Below, one piece after another: positions 41 to 24,332 of a stretch of 41,448 nucleotides of DNA. Source of the DNA: a virus; UHGV virus genome UHGV-0135480. One strand, given 5' to 3'. Both the position numbers and the translations under genes were made by a program. The stretch's first letter is position 1; each line of letters opens with the position of its first letter. Under the pieces are notes generated by a model. That model did no database searches. It was not told the origin of the DNA and saw only the letters and a list, made by a program, of their open reading frames with translations.

Positions 41-116
41 AGTCCAAGTAGCTTATATGGTTAAAGCGCGTGTCTGAAAAACATGAGAAGAGGGTTCAAA
101 TCCCACTGGACTACCA
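41..116 (+). tRNA. tRNA, probable tRNA-Phe (anticodon GAA)
   Basis: Acceptor agtccag-like pairing 41-47 with 106-112, D-arm with GG, anticodon stem cgtgt(69-73)/acatg(81-85) with loop cTGAAaa (U33, GAA at 76-78), T-loop GGTTCAAATCC, encoded CCA 114-116. One acceptor and one T-stem mismatch lower confidence. Confidence 0.55.
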
Positions 117-20758: not shown

Positions 20759-21931
20759 ATGGCAGTAGGTGAAATTCAAATTAGTGCCTTGCCTCAAGCA
20801 GCTTTACCAATTGACCTTAGTGATATCTTCCATCTTAAGCAGGGTATTGAGGATAAGAGGTGTACTCTTGAGCAATTACTTGCTCCACACGCAAGCCTAA
20901 GAAATAACCCTCATGGTGTTACTAAAACACAAATTGGTTTAGATAATGTTATTAATGCTCTTCAGTTAGTCGCTGCAAATAACTTATCAGATATTGTTAA
21001 TGTAGCTGAGGCAAGAGCAAATCTACAGATTATGTCTTCAGAAGAGGTTAATAACCTTGTCCAGCAACATATCAAGGACAAGAGTAATCCACACAATACA
21101 ACTAAGGCACAGGTTGGTTTAAGTAATGTTCAGAACTGGACAACATCTAATCTGTATAACGAAGATGCAGATAAGTATGCTACAGCAAGAGCAGTAAATA
21201 ACTTGTACAAGGCTGTTCAGGCTTCTTATCCAGTAGGTACTATTCATCTTTCTATGAACTCTGCAAACCCTTCTACATACTTAATTTGTGGAGGTACTTG
21301 GGAGTTAGTTTCAAAAGGCAGGGCATTGGTTGGCTATGACTCTGATACAAGACCAGCAGGTTCTGTATTTGGTGCTTCAACTGTCACTTTGTCAGTTAAT
21401 AACATGCCTCAACACTCCCACTCTGTGTCACTTAGTGGTGGTGGTCACACTCATAATGCAACTGTGTCAATTTCAGCTTTTGATTATGGGACTAAGACTA
21501 CAAACTCTTTTGACTATGGGACAAAAGCTACTAACACAACTGGTAACCATACACACAGTGTGTCAGGTAACACAAGCACCAATGGTACTCACAACCATGA
21601 TGTGTATCCTAGAGAAAATGATGGTACTGGTAATGCTGTAGCTGACTCTGATGGTGGTGGTGCAAGAAGGACATCAAGGACTTCTAGTGACGGTGCGCAC
21701 TCACACAGCTTTAACGTCACATCTGGTGCATCAGGTGACCACAGCCACACGGTTGGTATTGGTGCTCACAGCCATACAGTTGGTATTGGTTCACATACGC
21801 ATAGTGGCACTGTAACAGTTTCTTCTTCTGAACATACACATAGTGGCAATACAAATAGTGTTGGTGGAGGTCAGGCAGTTAATATTGAACAGCCATCCTT
21901 CGTACTGTATGTATGGCAGAGAACAGCTTAA
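20759..21931 (+). CDS. tail fibre protein with C-terminal His-x-His repeat domain
   Basis: 390 aa; C-terminal 170 aa is Gly/Ser/Thr-rich with at least 9 HxH triplets (HSHSVS, HTHSVSG, AHSHTVGIG) and two FDYGTK repeats; ends VLYVWQRTA, paralogous to the end of the next gene. Confidence 0.6.
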   Translation: MAVGEIQISALPQAALPIDLSDIFHLKQGIEDKRCTLEQLLAPHASLRNNPHGVTKTQIGLDNVINALQLVAANNLSDIVNVAEARANLQIMSSEEVNNLVQQHIKDKSNPHNTTKAQVGLSNVQNWTTSNLYNEDADKYATARAVNNLYKAVQASYPVGTIHLSMNSANPSTYLICGGTWELVSKGRALVGYDSDTRPAGSVFGASTVTLSVNNMPQHSHSVSLSGGGHTHNATVSISAFDYGTKTTNSFDYGTKATNTTGNHTHSVSGNTSTNGTHNHDVYPRENDGTGNAVADSDGGGARRTSRTSSDGAHSHSFNVTSGASGDHSHTVGIGAHSHTVGIGSHTHSGTVTVSSSEHTHSGNTNSVGGGQAVNIEQPSFVLYVWQRTA

Positions 21932-21977: not shown

Positions 21978-24332
21978 ATGGCAGATTACAAATTGAGTGA
22001 ACTAAACTCAATCGACACAATCCGTTCAGATGACCTTCTTCATGTCAGAGTTAAAAAGAGACCTGAAATGCTGGGTGATGAAGACCGTCGAATGACCTAT
22101 CAAGACTTCTTAGCATCTTTTAAACTTGAAAGATTTGTTCAGATTGCTGGTAGCACTATGACGGGTGACTTAGGAATTGTTAAGCTACTTTACGGTGGCA
22201 AGGCTGTATTCGACCCTACAGGCTCTTCTGAGATTACTGTTGGGGATGTTTTAAAGACTTTTAAAATCAACGCAAACGGCCTTAAACTAACTATTGCAGA
22301 CGCTTCAAGGTCGGCAACTGTTTATCATACTTTGAATAAGCCAAGCCCTAATGAACTTGGGATGAGAACTAATGAAGAGAATGACGCAAGGTATGCAAGA
22401 CTAGCCGTGAATAATACCTTTAGAGGTACTCAAGCTATCCTCTCTGACAATGAAGCGCTCATTATTAAAAATATCACTCAAGGTGCTCCACTCTATCTTC
22501 GTGGTCAAGATGCAGATGGTACTAACAGATGGTATCTAGGTAATGATAATAGGGGTACAAATAATCTTGTATTGAAGAATGTAAAGTCTGACGTTTCAAT
22601 TGCTATTTTAGAGAATTTGGTGACAGTCAACAGAACTCTTCAAATTGCTGGCCAAGTTCAGCCTTCAAGTTTTGCTAACTTAGATGCTAGGTATTTTACC
22701 CAGACAGCAGCTAATCAGAGATTTGCGCAGTTAGCTGGTAATAACACTTTTACTGGTACTAACACTTTCTCTAATTTTGTTGCTAAGAAGAATGCTGAAG
22801 CCATCACTCTGCAAAATGTGGACACTGCTCCCTCTTTATATATCCGAGCAAGAAAGTCAGATGGGAATTATAAGTGGTACATTGGTAATGACGGTGATGA
22901 GAACATTTTAAAAATCTATAACTATCTAACAAAAACACAAGTCTCACTAGGTAACACTATTGCCATGAGCAAAACAGTTCAAATTGATGGTCAAGTACAA
23001 CCTTCTGATTGGACTAACATTGATTCTAGATATATTCCGGCAGCCACTTTGAGTAATCTCCCTAAACTTAATGTGTCTAATACTTTCACAAATGTGCAAA
23101 CTATTGTATCTAACAACGAGGGTTTGGTATTAAGGAACTTGACACAGGGGCAGCCACTATATATCCGTGGTGTTGATACTGAGAATGTTTCTAGATGGTG
23201 GTTAGGTGTAGGTGGTCCAAACTCTAATGTGGTAACACTTAACAACAACTATTCTGACACTAAAATCTCACTTGGTGGCTCATCAGTAATGACTAATAAG
23301 AGCTTAGCTATTACTGGTCAAGTACAACCTTCTGACTTCTCTAACTTAGATGCTAGATACTATACCCAAGCTGCCGCAAACGCAAGATATATGCTTGCAA
23401 GCATCACTGGTTCGGCTTCTGAAGCAGATGGTGGTGATGGTGTTGCATGGGATGCAAAAACAGGTCTTTATAAGGTCACTAACACCACTGGACAGTCTTC
23501 TTCACTTGTATATCACATGTTTTTAGGGACTAGTTCTACACCATCTGCACAATTAAAGTTTTCGTTTAAAAATGGTGGGATGTGGTATAGAGCATCAAGA
23601 GATGCCTATGGCTTCGAAGTTAATTGGTCTAAAGTTTACACGGAAGCACAAAAACCAACCCCTTCAGAGATTGGTGCATACACTAAAACTGAAACTGACC
23701 AGAAGATTGCACAGGCAGTAAGTGACTCTACAGACCTTAACAAAATCTATCCAGTTGGTATTGTAACATGGTTTAACAGTAATGTTAACCCTAATACAGC
23801 ACTGCCTGGTCTAACTTGGACGTACCTTAACAATGGTGTTGGTAGAACTATCAGAATTGCAGCAGCAAACGGTTCAGATGTTGCTACAACTGGTGGTTCA
23901 GACTCTGTGACATTATCAGTTGGTAACTTACCATCACACACTCATAGTTTCTCTGCTACCACTTCATCTTTTGATTATGGTACAAAGAACACTAACAACA
24001 CTGGTGCTCACACCCACTCTGTAAGTGGTACAGCTAACTCTGGTGGTGGACACGCACATAGAATCTCACAAGGTGATAACGCTAACGTACCATCTGGTCG
24101 TGTTGCTTCATCAAACTCTGCTCAAACGCACGTTGGTTGGACAGAAAGTGATGGTGTTCACACCCACTCTGTAAGTGGTTCTGCTGCATCTGCTGGGGGG
24201 CATGCTCACTCAGTAGGTATTGGTGCTCATAGCCACACAGTTAGTGGTAACACTGGTGGTACAGGCTCTGGTTCAGCATTCAGTGTAACCAACCAGTTCT
24301 ACAAATTAATGGCTTGGGTAAGAACTGCTTAA
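21978..24332 (+). CDS. long tail fibre protein with three about 110-aa tandem repeats and C-terminal His-x-His repeat domain
   Basis: 784 aa; three internal repeats each containing QG.PLY.RG, W.LG and GQVQPS...DARY; C-terminus has HTHSFS, AHTHSVSG, GGHAHSVGIGAHSHTVSG and ends KLMAWVRTA. Confidence 0.65.
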   Translation: MADYKLSELNSIDTIRSDDLLHVRVKKRPEMLGDEDRRMTYQDFLASFKLERFVQIAGSTMTGDLGIVKLLYGGKAVFDPTGSSEITVGDVLKTFKINANGLKLTIADASRSATVYHTLNKPSPNELGMRTNEENDARYARLAVNNTFRGTQAILSDNEALIIKNITQGAPLYLRGQDADGTNRWYLGNDNRGTNNLVLKNVKSDVSIAILENLVTVNRTLQIAGQVQPSSFANLDARYFTQTAANQRFAQLAGNNTFTGTNTFSNFVAKKNAEAITLQNVDTAPSLYIRARKSDGNYKWYIGNDGDENILKIYNYLTKTQVSLGNTIAMSKTVQIDGQVQPSDWTNIDSRYIPAATLSNLPKLNVSNTFTNVQTIVSNNEGLVLRNLTQGQPLYIRGVDTENVSRWWLGVGGPNSNVVTLNNNYSDTKISLGGSSVMTNKSLAITGQVQPSDFSNLDARYYTQAAANARYMLASITGSASEADGGDGVAWDAKTGLYKVTNTTGQSSSLVYHMFLGTSSTPSAQLKFSFKNGGMWYRASRDAYGFEVNWSKVYTEAQKPTPSEIGAYTKTETDQKIAQAVSDSTDLNKIYPVGIVTWFNSNVNPNTALPGLTWTYLNNGVGRTIRIAAANGSDVATTGGSDSVTLSVGNLPSHTHSFSATTSSFDYGTKNTNNTGAHTHSVSGTANSGGGHAHRISQGDNANVPSGRVASSNSAQTHVGWTESDGVHTHSVSGSAASAGGHAHSVGIGAHSHTVSGNTGGTGSGSAFSVTNQFYKLMAWVRTA

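What the first reader, a model, noticed from the sequence alone, without database searches (positions are those of the whole stretch)
22370..23400. Three tandem repeats of about 110 aa in the long fibre shaft
Fibre 2 contains three consecutive units sharing QG.PLY(L/I)RG, W(Y/W)LG and GQVQPS(D/S)(F/W).N(L/I)D(A/S)RY. DNA identity between units is low, so the repeats are old and maintained at protein level. Repeat number could set fibre length.
Basis: seen in the sequence. Interest (0 to 1): 0.4.

Follow-up and report, generated by a model that had tools for sequence, protein, structure and literature searches.

The report
Three pyramid-domain repeats in phage fibre
The long tail fibre of this Felix O1-like phage does contain three tandem copies of a 110-residue domain, but the domain is a known family (the T7 tail-fibre "pyramid" domain) in a fibre already described by cryo-EM, so the finding is correct but ordinary.

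Summary
ORF 21978-24332 (+, 784 aa) is the long tail fibre (LTF) of a Felixounavirus, 95% nt identical to phages ULIM3 and VpaE1.

- **The repeats.** Residues 131-460 form three tandem units of 100-113 aa. They are 34-47% identical in protein and 49-54% in DNA, with alignment z-scores of 24-36 against shuffles.
- **Prior description.** The Bas63 and Sf14 cryo-EM papers already describe this shaft. They count five beta domains; only three are homologous by sequence here.
- **Copy number.** It is three in 23 of 23 Felixounavirus LTFs, with 752 matches across 253 phage records. Two syntenic metagenomic relatives carry four and five units, so length variation by copy number does occur.
- **Extra observations.** Unit cores are hypervariable cassettes between conserved junction motifs and assort independently. 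One cassette core is 94% nt identical between position 1 in one phage and position 3 in another.

Verdict: real, already known, low interest.

The parts
21978..24332 (+). Long tail fibre (LTF) gene, 784 aa; orthologue of Bas63 gp27 and Sf14 gp53
   Evidence: ORF. PHROG 4277 'tail fiber protein' matched full length, E=0. 95% nt identity to the annotated tail fibre genes of Escherichia phages ULIM3, ULIM8 and VpaE1. Syntenic position after the short fibre and before the small 65-aa/123-aa genes, ThyA and DHFR.
21978..22367 (+). Conserved N-terminal region (aa 1-130): baseplate-binding part plus a first beta-rich domain. Not homologous to the repeat units by sequence.
   Evidence: Mean pairwise identity of 92% among 21 full-length LTFs. 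No alignment to the units above chance. hhalign probability 1%. Role inferred from Bas63 gp27 (PMC12609058).
22368..22691 (+). Repeat unit 1 (aa 131-238): PF20744 pyramid-type domain with its linker
   Evidence: HMM domain aa 131-238, E 4e-54. One of three PF20744 stretches. SW z = 31-36 against U2 and U3.
22692..23030 (+). Repeat unit 2 (aa 239-351): PF20744 pyramid-type domain with its linker; the most divergent copy
   Evidence: HMM domain aa 240-351, E 2e-53. SW z = 24-31. Carries a 5-residue insertion and degenerate QG.PLY and WYLG motifs.
23031..23357 (+). Repeat unit 3 (aa 352-460): PF20744 pyramid-type domain with its linker
22650..22694 (+). Junction motif 1, GQVQPSSFANLDARY (aa 225-239)
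   Evidence: Conserved among the units and among phages (10-residue blocks aa 221-260 score 0.77-0.89 column identity). Part of the only DNA-level repeat family that spans all three units (D1).
22989..23033 (+). Junction motif 2, GQVQPSDWTNIDSRY (aa 338-352)
23316..23360 (+). Junction motif 3, GQVQPSDFSNLDARY (aa 447-461)
   Evidence: This motif type is also the 3' end-point of the cassette exchanged between positions in L006 and L019.
23433..23732 (+). PF12604 'gp37_C' domain (aa 486-585), homologous to the T7 gp17 tip domain and to part of Mu tail fibre S. Variable and replaced by unrelated domains in other Felixounavirus LTFs.
   Evidence: Pfam E 6.6e-19. PDB 8ju3 Mu fibre S, E 4e-20 over aa 480-577. 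T7 gp17 residues 466-542 hit the same Pfam family, E 1e-15. Nine allele types among 21 phages. Alternative domains are visible in P0001, P0002, P0016 and P0020.
23739..24071 (+). Collar region (Gp10_C / tail-collar type, aa 588-698), conserved
   Evidence: Pfam PF21939, E 6e-06, 27.6 bits against a curated cut-off of 27. Mean pairwise identity of 89% for aa 561-680 among phages.
23919..24266 (+). His-x-His needle and receptor-binding tip, T4 gp37-type (aa 648-763)
   Evidence: PDB 2xgf (T4 gp37 tip), E 3e-13. Pfam Phage_fiber repeats. Tip segment aa 681-745 is variable, with 10 allele types.
20759..21931 (+). Short tail fibre (390 aa). Same collar and HxH needle but no PF20744 units; serves as the internal comparison for what the units add.
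   Evidence: Pfam Gp10_C, E 3e-17, and no PF20744 hit. PHROG 2097. In Bas63 the short fibre is 430 A and the long fibre 630 A (PMC12609058).

Best explanation
The three units are tandem copies of the T7 gp17 'pyramid' trimerisation domain (Pfam PF20744). They lie in the shaft of the homotrimeric long tail fibre of a Felixounavirus.

**Proposed structure.** In the assembled trimer, each unit's roughly six beta-strands interdigitate with those of the other two chains to form one rigid beta bead. The conserved junction (GQVQPSD.xN.DxRY plus the following short helices ending in NTF) forms the 'triple helix and turn' connector to the next bead. Together with a non-homologous N-terminal beta domain and a T7-tip-like domain (PF12604), they build the beaded rod. 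The rod holds the T4 gp37-like collar, HxH needle and tip about 20 nm further out than the short fibre does.

**Proposed function.** The units act as length-setting, self-trimerising spacer modules. Because the junctions are conserved and the cores are not, each core behaves as an exchangeable cassette. Recombination at the junctions reshuffles cassettes between phages and between repeat positions. In rare lineages it adds copies.

**Shown here:** repeat reality, family membership, fold similarity, invariant copy number in cultured relatives, 4- and 5-copy relatives, the cassette pattern, and purifying selection within allele types.

**Inferred:** the interdigitated trimer geometry (from T7 gp17 and the published Bas63 model), the per-unit length contribution, and the recombination mechanism.
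For: **Repeat reality.** z = 24-36 against shuffles. Three PF20744 stretches, E 2e-60, 201 bits against a cut-off of 21.7.

**Identity of the family.**
- A 15-sequence unit profile hits T7 gp17 chains 4a0t, 4a0u and 7boz at residues 368-435, E 5e-7.
- T7 gp17 residues 371-464 hit PF20744 at E 1.6e-40, and residues 466-542 hit PF12604.
- Foldseek with the 600-aa model hits Mu fibre 8ju3, T4 gp34 (4uxg, 5nxf) and T7 4a0t.

**Published structures.** Bas63 LTF gp27 is 630 A long, with beta-rich repeat domains separated by triple-helix-and-turn motifs. Its short fibre is 430 A and lacks them (PMC12609058). Sf14 gp53 has T7 gp17 pyramid-like and Mu gp49-like domains (PMC11821841).

**Copy number.**
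- Three in 23 of 23 Felixounavirus LTFs.
- 752 tblastn places in 253 phage records.
- Five units in L027 (1015 aa) and four in L028 (about 932 aa), both in fully syntenic loci.
- The extra units are flanked by junction-2-type linkers (sequences).

**Cassette behaviour.**
- Mean pairwise identity is 0.40-0.47 in cores and 0.77-0.83 in junctions.
- The identity distribution is bimodal, with 8-13 allele types per position.
- 18 distinct combinations occur in 21 phages.
- L006 unit 1 is 94.2% nt identical over 277 nt to L019 unit 3.

**Selection.** dN/dS is 0.11-0.26 in cores and 0.08-0.10 in the conserved parts.
Against: - Copy number is invariant in all cultured relatives, so 'length setting by copy number' is not a tuning knob in active use there.
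- The 5-unit gene is known from a single Logan metagenome contig. A chimeric assembly at the conserved junctions cannot be excluded. The 4-unit gene is on 3 contigs from two sources.
- The strong diversity of the cores is more than a pure spacer needs. It hints at an additional function that was not tested.
Confidence: 0.85

Rival explanations
1. The units are not only spacers. Each hypervariable pyramid cassette is an auxiliary host-surface binding module, for example for O-antigen or LPS glycan, displayed laterally along the shaft. Host range would then be coded combinatorially by the three cassettes, the T7-tip-like domain and the needle tip. This is compatible with the best explanation and adds a function to it.
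For: - Cores are as variable as the known receptor-binding tip: mean pairwise identity 0.40-0.47 against 0.38 for the tip.
- Each allele type is under purifying selection (dN/dS 0.11-0.26). They are conserved functional variants rather than drifting sequence.
- Cassettes assort independently (18 combinations in 21 phages) and are exchanged recently (94% nt identity).
- The adjacent PF12604 domain is homologous to the T7 gp17 tip, which binds LPS (PMC11821841).
- The Bas63 authors list variable host recognition as one of three possible explanations.
- Ounavirinae are known to target LPS or O-antigen (PMC8594841).
Against: - No binding data and no recognisable carbohydrate-binding motif.
- No binding role for the T7 pyramid domain was found in what was read here; the Sf14 paper assigns LPS interaction to the tip domain only.
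- The galectin hits of the unit profile are insignificant (E 0.17-0.2).
- Mosaicism alone is typical of phage fibre genes and can reflect hitch-hiking with neighbouring specificity determinants.
Confidence: 0.25
2. The core variability is neutral. The pyramid fold tolerates almost any surface substitution, so the units are inert spacers that have simply drifted. The apparent cassettes would reflect ancient divergence without selection.
For: - Only about 12 of roughly 109 columns are invariant across a 15-sequence unit alignment (12 with U3 listed first; 12 with U1 first). They are mostly motif positions around the beta core.
- The Bas63 authors list mutational tolerance as a possibility.
- dN/dS in the cores is somewhat higher than in the conserved parts.
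Against: - dN/dS of 0.11-0.26 within allele types shows clear purifying selection.
- The pairwise identity distribution is bimodal, with few intermediates. A 94% nt identical cassette sits at different positions in two phages. Both point to recombinational exchange of maintained alleles rather than gradual drift.
Confidence: 0.1
3. The reader under-counted. The shaft holds five homologous repeats, as counted structurally in Bas63, and the N-terminal domain (aa ~60-130) and the PF12604 domain (aa 486-585) are very divergent copies of the same unit.
For: - PMC12609058 describes five beta-helix repeat domains separated by helix-and-turn motifs.
- My 600-aa model shows beta-rich segments at aa 70-116 and 476-553 flanked by short helices.
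- The linkers after the N-domain and after PF12604 share a motif, VY..KP[ST]P.E[LI]G..T..E.D (hhalign E 3e-4 over 25 columns).
- The unit profile hits Mu fibre S (5yvq) residues 354-439 weakly, E 0.23.
Against: - There is no sequence signal: SW z -0.9 to 2.8, and hhalign probability 0.4-1.1% between the unit profile and either domain.
- PF12604 is a separate Pfam family. It corresponds to the T7 tip domain, a different domain from the pyramid in T7 gp17.
Confidence: 0.12
4. The apparent repeats are a chance or compositional effect of a Gly/Asn/Thr-rich fibre sequence.
For: - The self-BLASTP returned only the identity alignment.
- Compositionally biased proteins did produce false multi-stretch hits to the first unit profile (P0033 and P0052).
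Against: - z = 24-36, with 0 of 500 shuffles reaching the score.
- A curated Pfam family matches three times at E 2e-60.
- The same three units are found in every orthologue.
Confidence: 0.01

Closest known systems
Bas63 (Escherichia phage JohannRWettstein) long tail fibre gp27, cryo-EM plus AlphaFold 3 model (PMC12609058)
   Same: Same genus, same gene position and about the same length (its HHxH is at H692-H695; the window has H692/H694). [quoted passage not shown] The paper reports high variability of repeat regions 2-5 and constant repeat number in the genus. Both are reproduced here.
   Different: The paper counts five structural beta domains. Sequence analysis here shows that only the middle three are homologous (PF20744), while the fifth is a T7-tip-like PF12604 domain. 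The paper does not report exchange of cassettes between repeat positions or the 4- and 5-unit relatives. The Bas63 sequence itself was not retrieved here.
Shigella phage Sf14 longer tail fibre gp53 (PMC11821841)
   Same: An Ounavirinae (Mooglevirus) orthologue, also 630 A long. It has three tblastn matches to unit 3. It is described as containing T7 gp17 C-terminus-like and Mu gp49-like domains.
   Different: Only 37% identity to window unit 3. The paper does not describe the tandem triplication as such.
T7 tail fibre gp17 C-terminal region, pyramid plus tip domains (PDB 4A0T/4A0U)
   Different: T7 has one pyramid domain, and its tip domain is the distal end of the fibre. Here there are three pyramids in tandem, and the tip-like domain is internal, followed by a T4-type collar and needle.
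T4 proximal long tail fibre gp34 rod region (PDB 4UXG/5NXF/5NXH; PMC5537660)
   Same: A beaded trimeric rod of beta-prism or beta-helix domains joined by short helical connectors. Foldseek E 4e-5 over about 425 columns. It works in the same way, as a rigid spacer.
Phage Mu tail fibre S / gp49 (PDB 8JU3, 5YVQ)
   Same: Residues 330-426 of 8ju3 align to window aa 480-577 at E 4e-20. It is the top Foldseek hit.
   Different: The similarity concerns the PF12604 domain after the repeats, not the repeat units (unit profile E 0.23). Per the Sf14 paper (PMC11821841), Mu's fibre needs chaperones (gp50, gp51) that have no homologue in the Sf14 genome; the window itself was not searched for them.

Membership tests
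Pfam PF20744 'gp37_trimer' (T7 gp17 pyramid-domain family) | Score above the curated gathering threshold of the family HMM | tested here: met
   201.3 bits against a cut-off of 21.7, E 2e-60, three stretches.
Pfam PF20744 'gp37_trimer' (T7 gp17 pyramid-domain family) | Sequence homology to the structurally defined pyramid domain of T7 gp17 (residues ~371-447) | tested here: met
   The unit profile hits 4a0t, 4a0u and 7boz at residues 368-435, E 5e-7. T7 gp17 residues 371-464 hit PF20744 at E 1.6e-40.
Pfam PF20744 'gp37_trimer' (T7 gp17 pyramid-domain family) | Same fold at the chain level | tested here: met
Pfam PF20744 'gp37_trimer' (T7 gp17 pyramid-domain family) | Interdigitated homotrimeric assembly | not testable with these tools
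   Only monomer prediction is available. Supported indirectly by the published Bas63 trimer model and density (PMC12609058).
Ounavirinae long tail fibre (Bas63 gp27 / Sf14 gp53 orthologue group) | Full-length homology and a conserved N-terminal baseplate-binding region | tested here: met
   PHROG 4277 matched 1-784 of 780 profile positions, E=0. 95% nt identity to annotated Felixounavirus tail fibre genes. N-terminal aa 1-140 has 92% mean identity.
Ounavirinae long tail fibre (Bas63 gp27 / Sf14 gp53 orthologue group) | Gene order: wedge, 100-aa protein, short fibre, long fibre, two small genes, ThyA, DHFR | tested here: met
   Window ORFs. The same order is found in L027 and L028.
Ounavirinae long tail fibre (Bas63 gp27 / Sf14 gp53 orthologue group) | C-terminal collar plus HxH needle of T4 gp37 type | tested here: met
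   PDB 2xgf, E 3e-13 over aa 648-763. Pfam Gp10_C and Phage_fiber.
T4 gp34 rod-domain families (PF21446 Gp34_trimer, PF21560 Gp34_2nd) | HMM match to the gp34 domain families | tested here: not met
T4 gp37 distal fibre (suggested by the Pfam name 'gp37_trimer') | The repeat unit being homologous to a T4 gp37 shaft segment | tested here: not met
   T4 gp37 hits Collar, Phage_fiber and (weakly) Gp34_trimer, but not PF20744 or PF12604. Only the needle and tip (aa 648-763) are T4 gp37-like.

The most novel reading that the evidence does not exclude
The three pyramid cassettes, together with the T7-tip-like domain, would be independently exchangeable host-glycan reading modules arrayed along the fibre shaft. 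Conserved junction motifs would let recombination swap them between phages, move them between repeat positions, and expand the array to four or five units in uncultured Ounavirinae. Host range of Felix O1-like phages would then be coded combinatorially by the whole shaft and not only by the distal tip.

The exchange and expansion parts are essentially shown here. The binding function is untested.
Probability: 0.2. Interest if true: 0.5.

Novelty: already known. Interest (0 to 1): 0.15.

Why it matters
The finding itself adds little. The domain is in Pfam. The fibre architecture has been published for two Ounavirinae phages. Constancy of repeat number in the genus has already been reported.

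Three side results have modest practical value.

1. They clarify that Pfam's 'gp37_trimer' and 'gp37_C' are the T7 gp17 pyramid and tip domains, not parts of T4 gp37. This helps annotation of these widely used typing and biocontrol phages.
2. They bear on one of the three explanations offered by the Bas63 authors for shaft variability. The cores are recombining cassettes under purifying selection, not freely drifting sequence.
3. Natural 4- and 5-unit fibres, and a cassette that works at either position 1 or position 3, suggest the units are interchangeable building blocks. These could be used to engineer fibre length or, if they bind glycans, host range.

Tried and rejected
- **Self-BLASTP of the fibre.** It returned only the identity alignment. 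I replaced it with Smith-Waterman plus shuffles.
- **The search for homologous proteins with the three-unit region.** It returned only 27 proteins, all of 210-542 aa and many labelled partial by their sources. These were useful for profiles but not for counting units. Full-length orthologues came from IMG/VR loci instead.
- **Proteins with 14 and 12 'stretches' in the representative search (P0033, P0052).** They looked like extreme copy numbers. They are large proteins with about 20-residue Leu/Asn/Asp/Val-rich repeats, and they are not hit by the richer unit HMM. Rejected as compositional false positives.
- **The N-terminal domain and the PF12604 domain as divergent copies of the unit.** No support from SW or hhalign.
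- **The idea that the unit is a T4 gp37 or gp34 repeat, suggested by the Pfam name and the Bas63 comparison.** T4 gp34, gp36 and gp37 do not match PF20744.
- **Retrieving the Bas63 genome.** My guessed accession (MZ501111) turned out to be Bas51, a Vequintavirus, and I did not pursue it.
- **Literature searches for cassette recombination in Felixounavirus fibres.** They found only general statements about fibre variability.
- **Long exact DNA repeats that could drive unequal crossing-over within the gene.** None were found. The best is the 71-nt junction segment at 61-75% identity.
Full report
**1. What is at the coordinates**

The finding (22370-23400) lies inside ORF 21978-24332 (+), 784 aa. 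It corresponds to aa 131-475.

The window is a Felix O1-like myovirus.
- The gene is 95% nt identical over its full length to the annotated tail fibre genes of Escherichia phages ULIM3, ULIM8 and VpaE1.
- 235 phage records match it, almost all Felixounavirus from Escherichia or Salmonella.
- PHROG 4277 'tail fiber protein' matches end to end.
- The neighbours are a wedge protein, a 100-aa protein, a 390-aa short fibre, then two small genes, ThyA and DHFR.

**2. Check of the observation**

Cutting the protein after each ..D.RY motif gives three units:

| Unit | Residues | Nucleotides |
|---|---|---|
| U1 | aa 139-238 (131-238 with its linker) | 22368-22691 |
| U2 | aa 239-351 | 22692-23030 |
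| U3 | aa 352-460 | 23031-23357 |

- Pairwise Smith-Waterman scores are 158-247, against about 30 +/- 5 for shuffled sequences. That gives z = 24-36, with 0 of 500 shuffles reaching the score.
- Protein identity is 34-47%. Codon-aligned DNA identity is 49-54%.
- At the DNA level, only the 71-nt junction segment is recognisable in all three copies, at 61-75% identity.
- The GQVQPS..N.D.RY motif is in all three units. QG.PLY[LI]RG and W[YW]LG are exact in U1 and U3 and degenerate in U2.
- The segments before (aa 29-138) and after (aa 461-570) do not align with the units. hhalign gives <=1% probability.

**3. What the unit is**

- Pfam finds three stretches of PF20744 'gp37_trimer' (E 2e-60). These are followed by PF12604 'gp37_C' (aa 486-585), a Gp10_C/collar region and Phage_fiber His-x-His repeats.
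- The Pfam names mislead. T4 gp34, gp36 and gp37 do not hit PF20744 or PF12604. T7 gp17 hits PF20744 at residues 371-464 (E 1.6e-40) and PF12604 at 466-542. These are the crystallographic pyramid and tip domains of PDB 4A0T.
- A 15-sequence profile of the unit finds the T7 gp17 chains in PDB sequences at E 5e-7, residues 368-435.
- A 600-aa monomer model is poor globally (pTM 0.27). It shows six to seven strands per unit followed by short helices in each junction. Its Foldseek hits are Mu fibre 8ju3, T4 gp34 and T7 gp17.
- The C-terminal third is T4 gp37-like (2xgf, E 3e-13), and aa 480-577 match Mu fibre S (8ju3, E 4e-20).

The fibre layout is therefore: N-terminal attachment region, three T7-type pyramid domains, one T7-tip-like domain, T4-type collar, HxH needle and tip.

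**4. What is already published**

- The Bas63 cryo-EM paper (PMC12609058) describes the orthologous LTF gp27. [quoted passage not shown] The short fibre is 430 A and lacks those domains.
- The same paper reports unexpectedly high variability of repeat regions 2-5. It also reports that repeat number does not vary among ICTV Felixounavirus species.
- The Sf14 paper (PMC11821841) notes T7 gp17 pyramid-like and Mu gp49-like domains in gp53.
- The feature is thus known. My sequence analysis refines the count: regions 2-4 are the three homologous units, region 5 is the PF12604 domain, and region 1 is an unrelated conserved N-terminal domain. This matches the conservation profile.

**5. Repeat number among relatives**

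- All 22 IMG/VR Felixounavirus LTFs, plus the window, have exactly three units at the same positions.
- tblastn of U3 against 50,697 phage records gives 752 places in 253 records. All but three of the 60 listed rows show three places; those three show one or two. The set includes Mooglevirus (Sf13, Sf14, Maleficent) and Suspvirus (phiSUSP1).
- A profile search of 1.84 billion representative proteins finds 246 proteins at E<=1e-3.
- Recounting with a richer HMM gives: one unit in 110 proteins, two in 24, three in 6, four in one (P0029) and five in one (P0028).
- P0028 (L027) and P0029 (L028) sit in 77-87 kb phage contigs with the same gene order as the window. Their wedge proteins are about 69% identical to the window's. 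They are orthologous fibres from more distant Ounavirinae-like phages.
- Pfam confirms five and four PF20744 stretches.
- The proteins are longer by about one unit per extra copy: 1015 aa, and about 932 aa after correcting the L028 start.
- The extra units are flanked by junction-2-type linkers (..RY[IL].A.....LAK....N.F; sequences). L027 units 3 and 5 are 64% identical to each other and 54-60% identical to window U1.

Copy-number change does occur, but it is rare. The 5-unit form rests on one contig.

**6. Cassette behaviour**

- Across 21 full-length LTFs, the N-terminus, collar and C-terminal end are 89-94% identical. The junctions are 77-83% identical. The unit cores are 40-47%, the PF12604 slot 30% and the needle tip 38%.
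- Pairwise identities in the cores are bimodal, either below 50% or above 70%. There are 8-13 allele types per position and 18 distinct combinations among 21 phages.
- Some units are closer to a unit at another position in another phage. The L006 unit 1 core is 94.2% nt identical over 277 nt to the L019 unit 3 core. The end-points lie at the conserved NTF and GQV.PSD..N.D.RY motifs.
- Within allele types, dN/dS is 0.11-0.26, against 0.08-0.10 in the conserved parts. This indicates purifying selection.
- The cores are therefore maintained, exchangeable cassettes. They are not freely drifting spacer sequence.

**7. Mechanism**

The best-supported reading has three parts.

1. Each unit is a self-trimerising pyramid-type bead. 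The conserved junction forms the helical connector. Together the beads extend the receptor-binding needle beyond the reach of the short fibre.
2. Copy number sets shaft length in steps of one bead. This is an inference, supported by the 3-, 4- and 5-unit series and by the Bas63 fibre lengths.
3. The conserved junctions serve as recombination end-points.

It is open whether the variable bead surfaces also bind host glycans. The pattern of diversity is compatible with that, and Ounavirinae are LPS/O-antigen binders.

**8. Verdict**

The feature is a catalogued domain in a published architecture, so novelty is 'already known' and interest is low.

The modest additions are:
- the identification of the Pfam families with the T7 pyramid and tip domains;
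- the three-versus-five count;
- the rare 4- and 5-unit relatives;
- the cross-position cassette exchange.

Noticed in passing
L006:~1890-2210 (LTF unit 1) versus L019 LTF unit 3 (CDS nt 1101-1377): A repeat-unit core is 94.2% nt identical over 277 nt between position 1 of one Felixounavirus LTF and position 3 of another, while the flanks stay position-specific. L005 and L023 unit 1 similarly resemble L014 unit 3 (71% and 66% aa identity). This indicates cassette exchange between repeat positions, with end-points at the NTF and GQV.PSD..N.D.RY motifs.
   Followed up: partly
L027:8001-11048 and L028:7911-10706: Orthologous long fibres with five and four PF20744 units occur in metagenomic Ounavirinae-like phages (Logan SRR22802239; ENA ERZ28599557). 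The gene call for L028 starts about 90 nt too late; the true N-terminus is MAEYNLSQL...
   Followed up: yes
window 23433-23732 (aa 486-585): The domain slot after unit 3 (PF12604, T7-tip-like and Mu S-like here) is replaced by unrelated domains in other Felixounavirus LTFs. Nine types occur among 21 phages, one of them with a PF21558 hit in P0008. An internal T7 'tip' domain upstream of a T4-type needle is an odd arrangement whose role is unknown.
   Followed up: partly
Pfam PF20744 / PF12604: The Pfam names 'gp37_trimer' and 'gp37_C' suggest T4 gp37, but T4 gp37 does not match either family. T7 gp17 residues 371-464 and 466-542 do. Annotation transferred from the names would mislead.
   Followed up: yes
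window 20759-21931 and 24002-24249: The short fibre (390 aa) shares the collar and HxH needle with the long fibre. Within the LTF needle the HxH segments form DNA-level repeats (24002-24058 versus 24152-24208, 81% identical), which is higher than between the 110-aa units.
   Followed up: no
window 41-116, 870-962, 967-1042: Three tRNA genes (Phe-GAA, Ser-GCT, Cys-GCA) lie at the left end of the window. They are presumably part of the Felix O1-type tRNA cluster.
   Followed up: no
window ~25000 and ~36000: GC skew changes sign near 25 kb and again near 36 kb. The first switch coincides with the change from plus-strand structural genes to the minus-strand ThyA and DHFR genes; ORFs around 36 kb were not examined.
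   Followed up: no
P0018; phage records MG065668.1 and others: Felixounavirus LTF sequences appear under non-enterobacterial labels: a 'Staphylococcus hyicus' hypothetical protein on a 47.6-kb contig, two 'Campylobacter phage' records and one 'Staphylococcus' record. These are most likely contamination or mislabelling in the source records.
   Followed up: no
P0033 (2080 aa) and P0052 (1711 aa): These are large proteins with dozens of ~20-residue repeats (..SDTSLNSRLFVGGDVSLN.RL..). They gave 14 and 12 spurious 'stretches' against the first unit profile. They are unrelated to the fibre domain, and their origin is unknown.
   Followed up: partly
window aa 113-137 versus aa 551-575 (nt 22314-22388 and 23628-23702): A second linker type, VY..KP[ST]P.E[LI]G..T..E.D, follows both the N-terminal domain and the PF12604 domain (hhalign E 3e-4 over 25 columns). 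It is distinct from the GQVQPS junction that follows the three units.
   Followed up: partly
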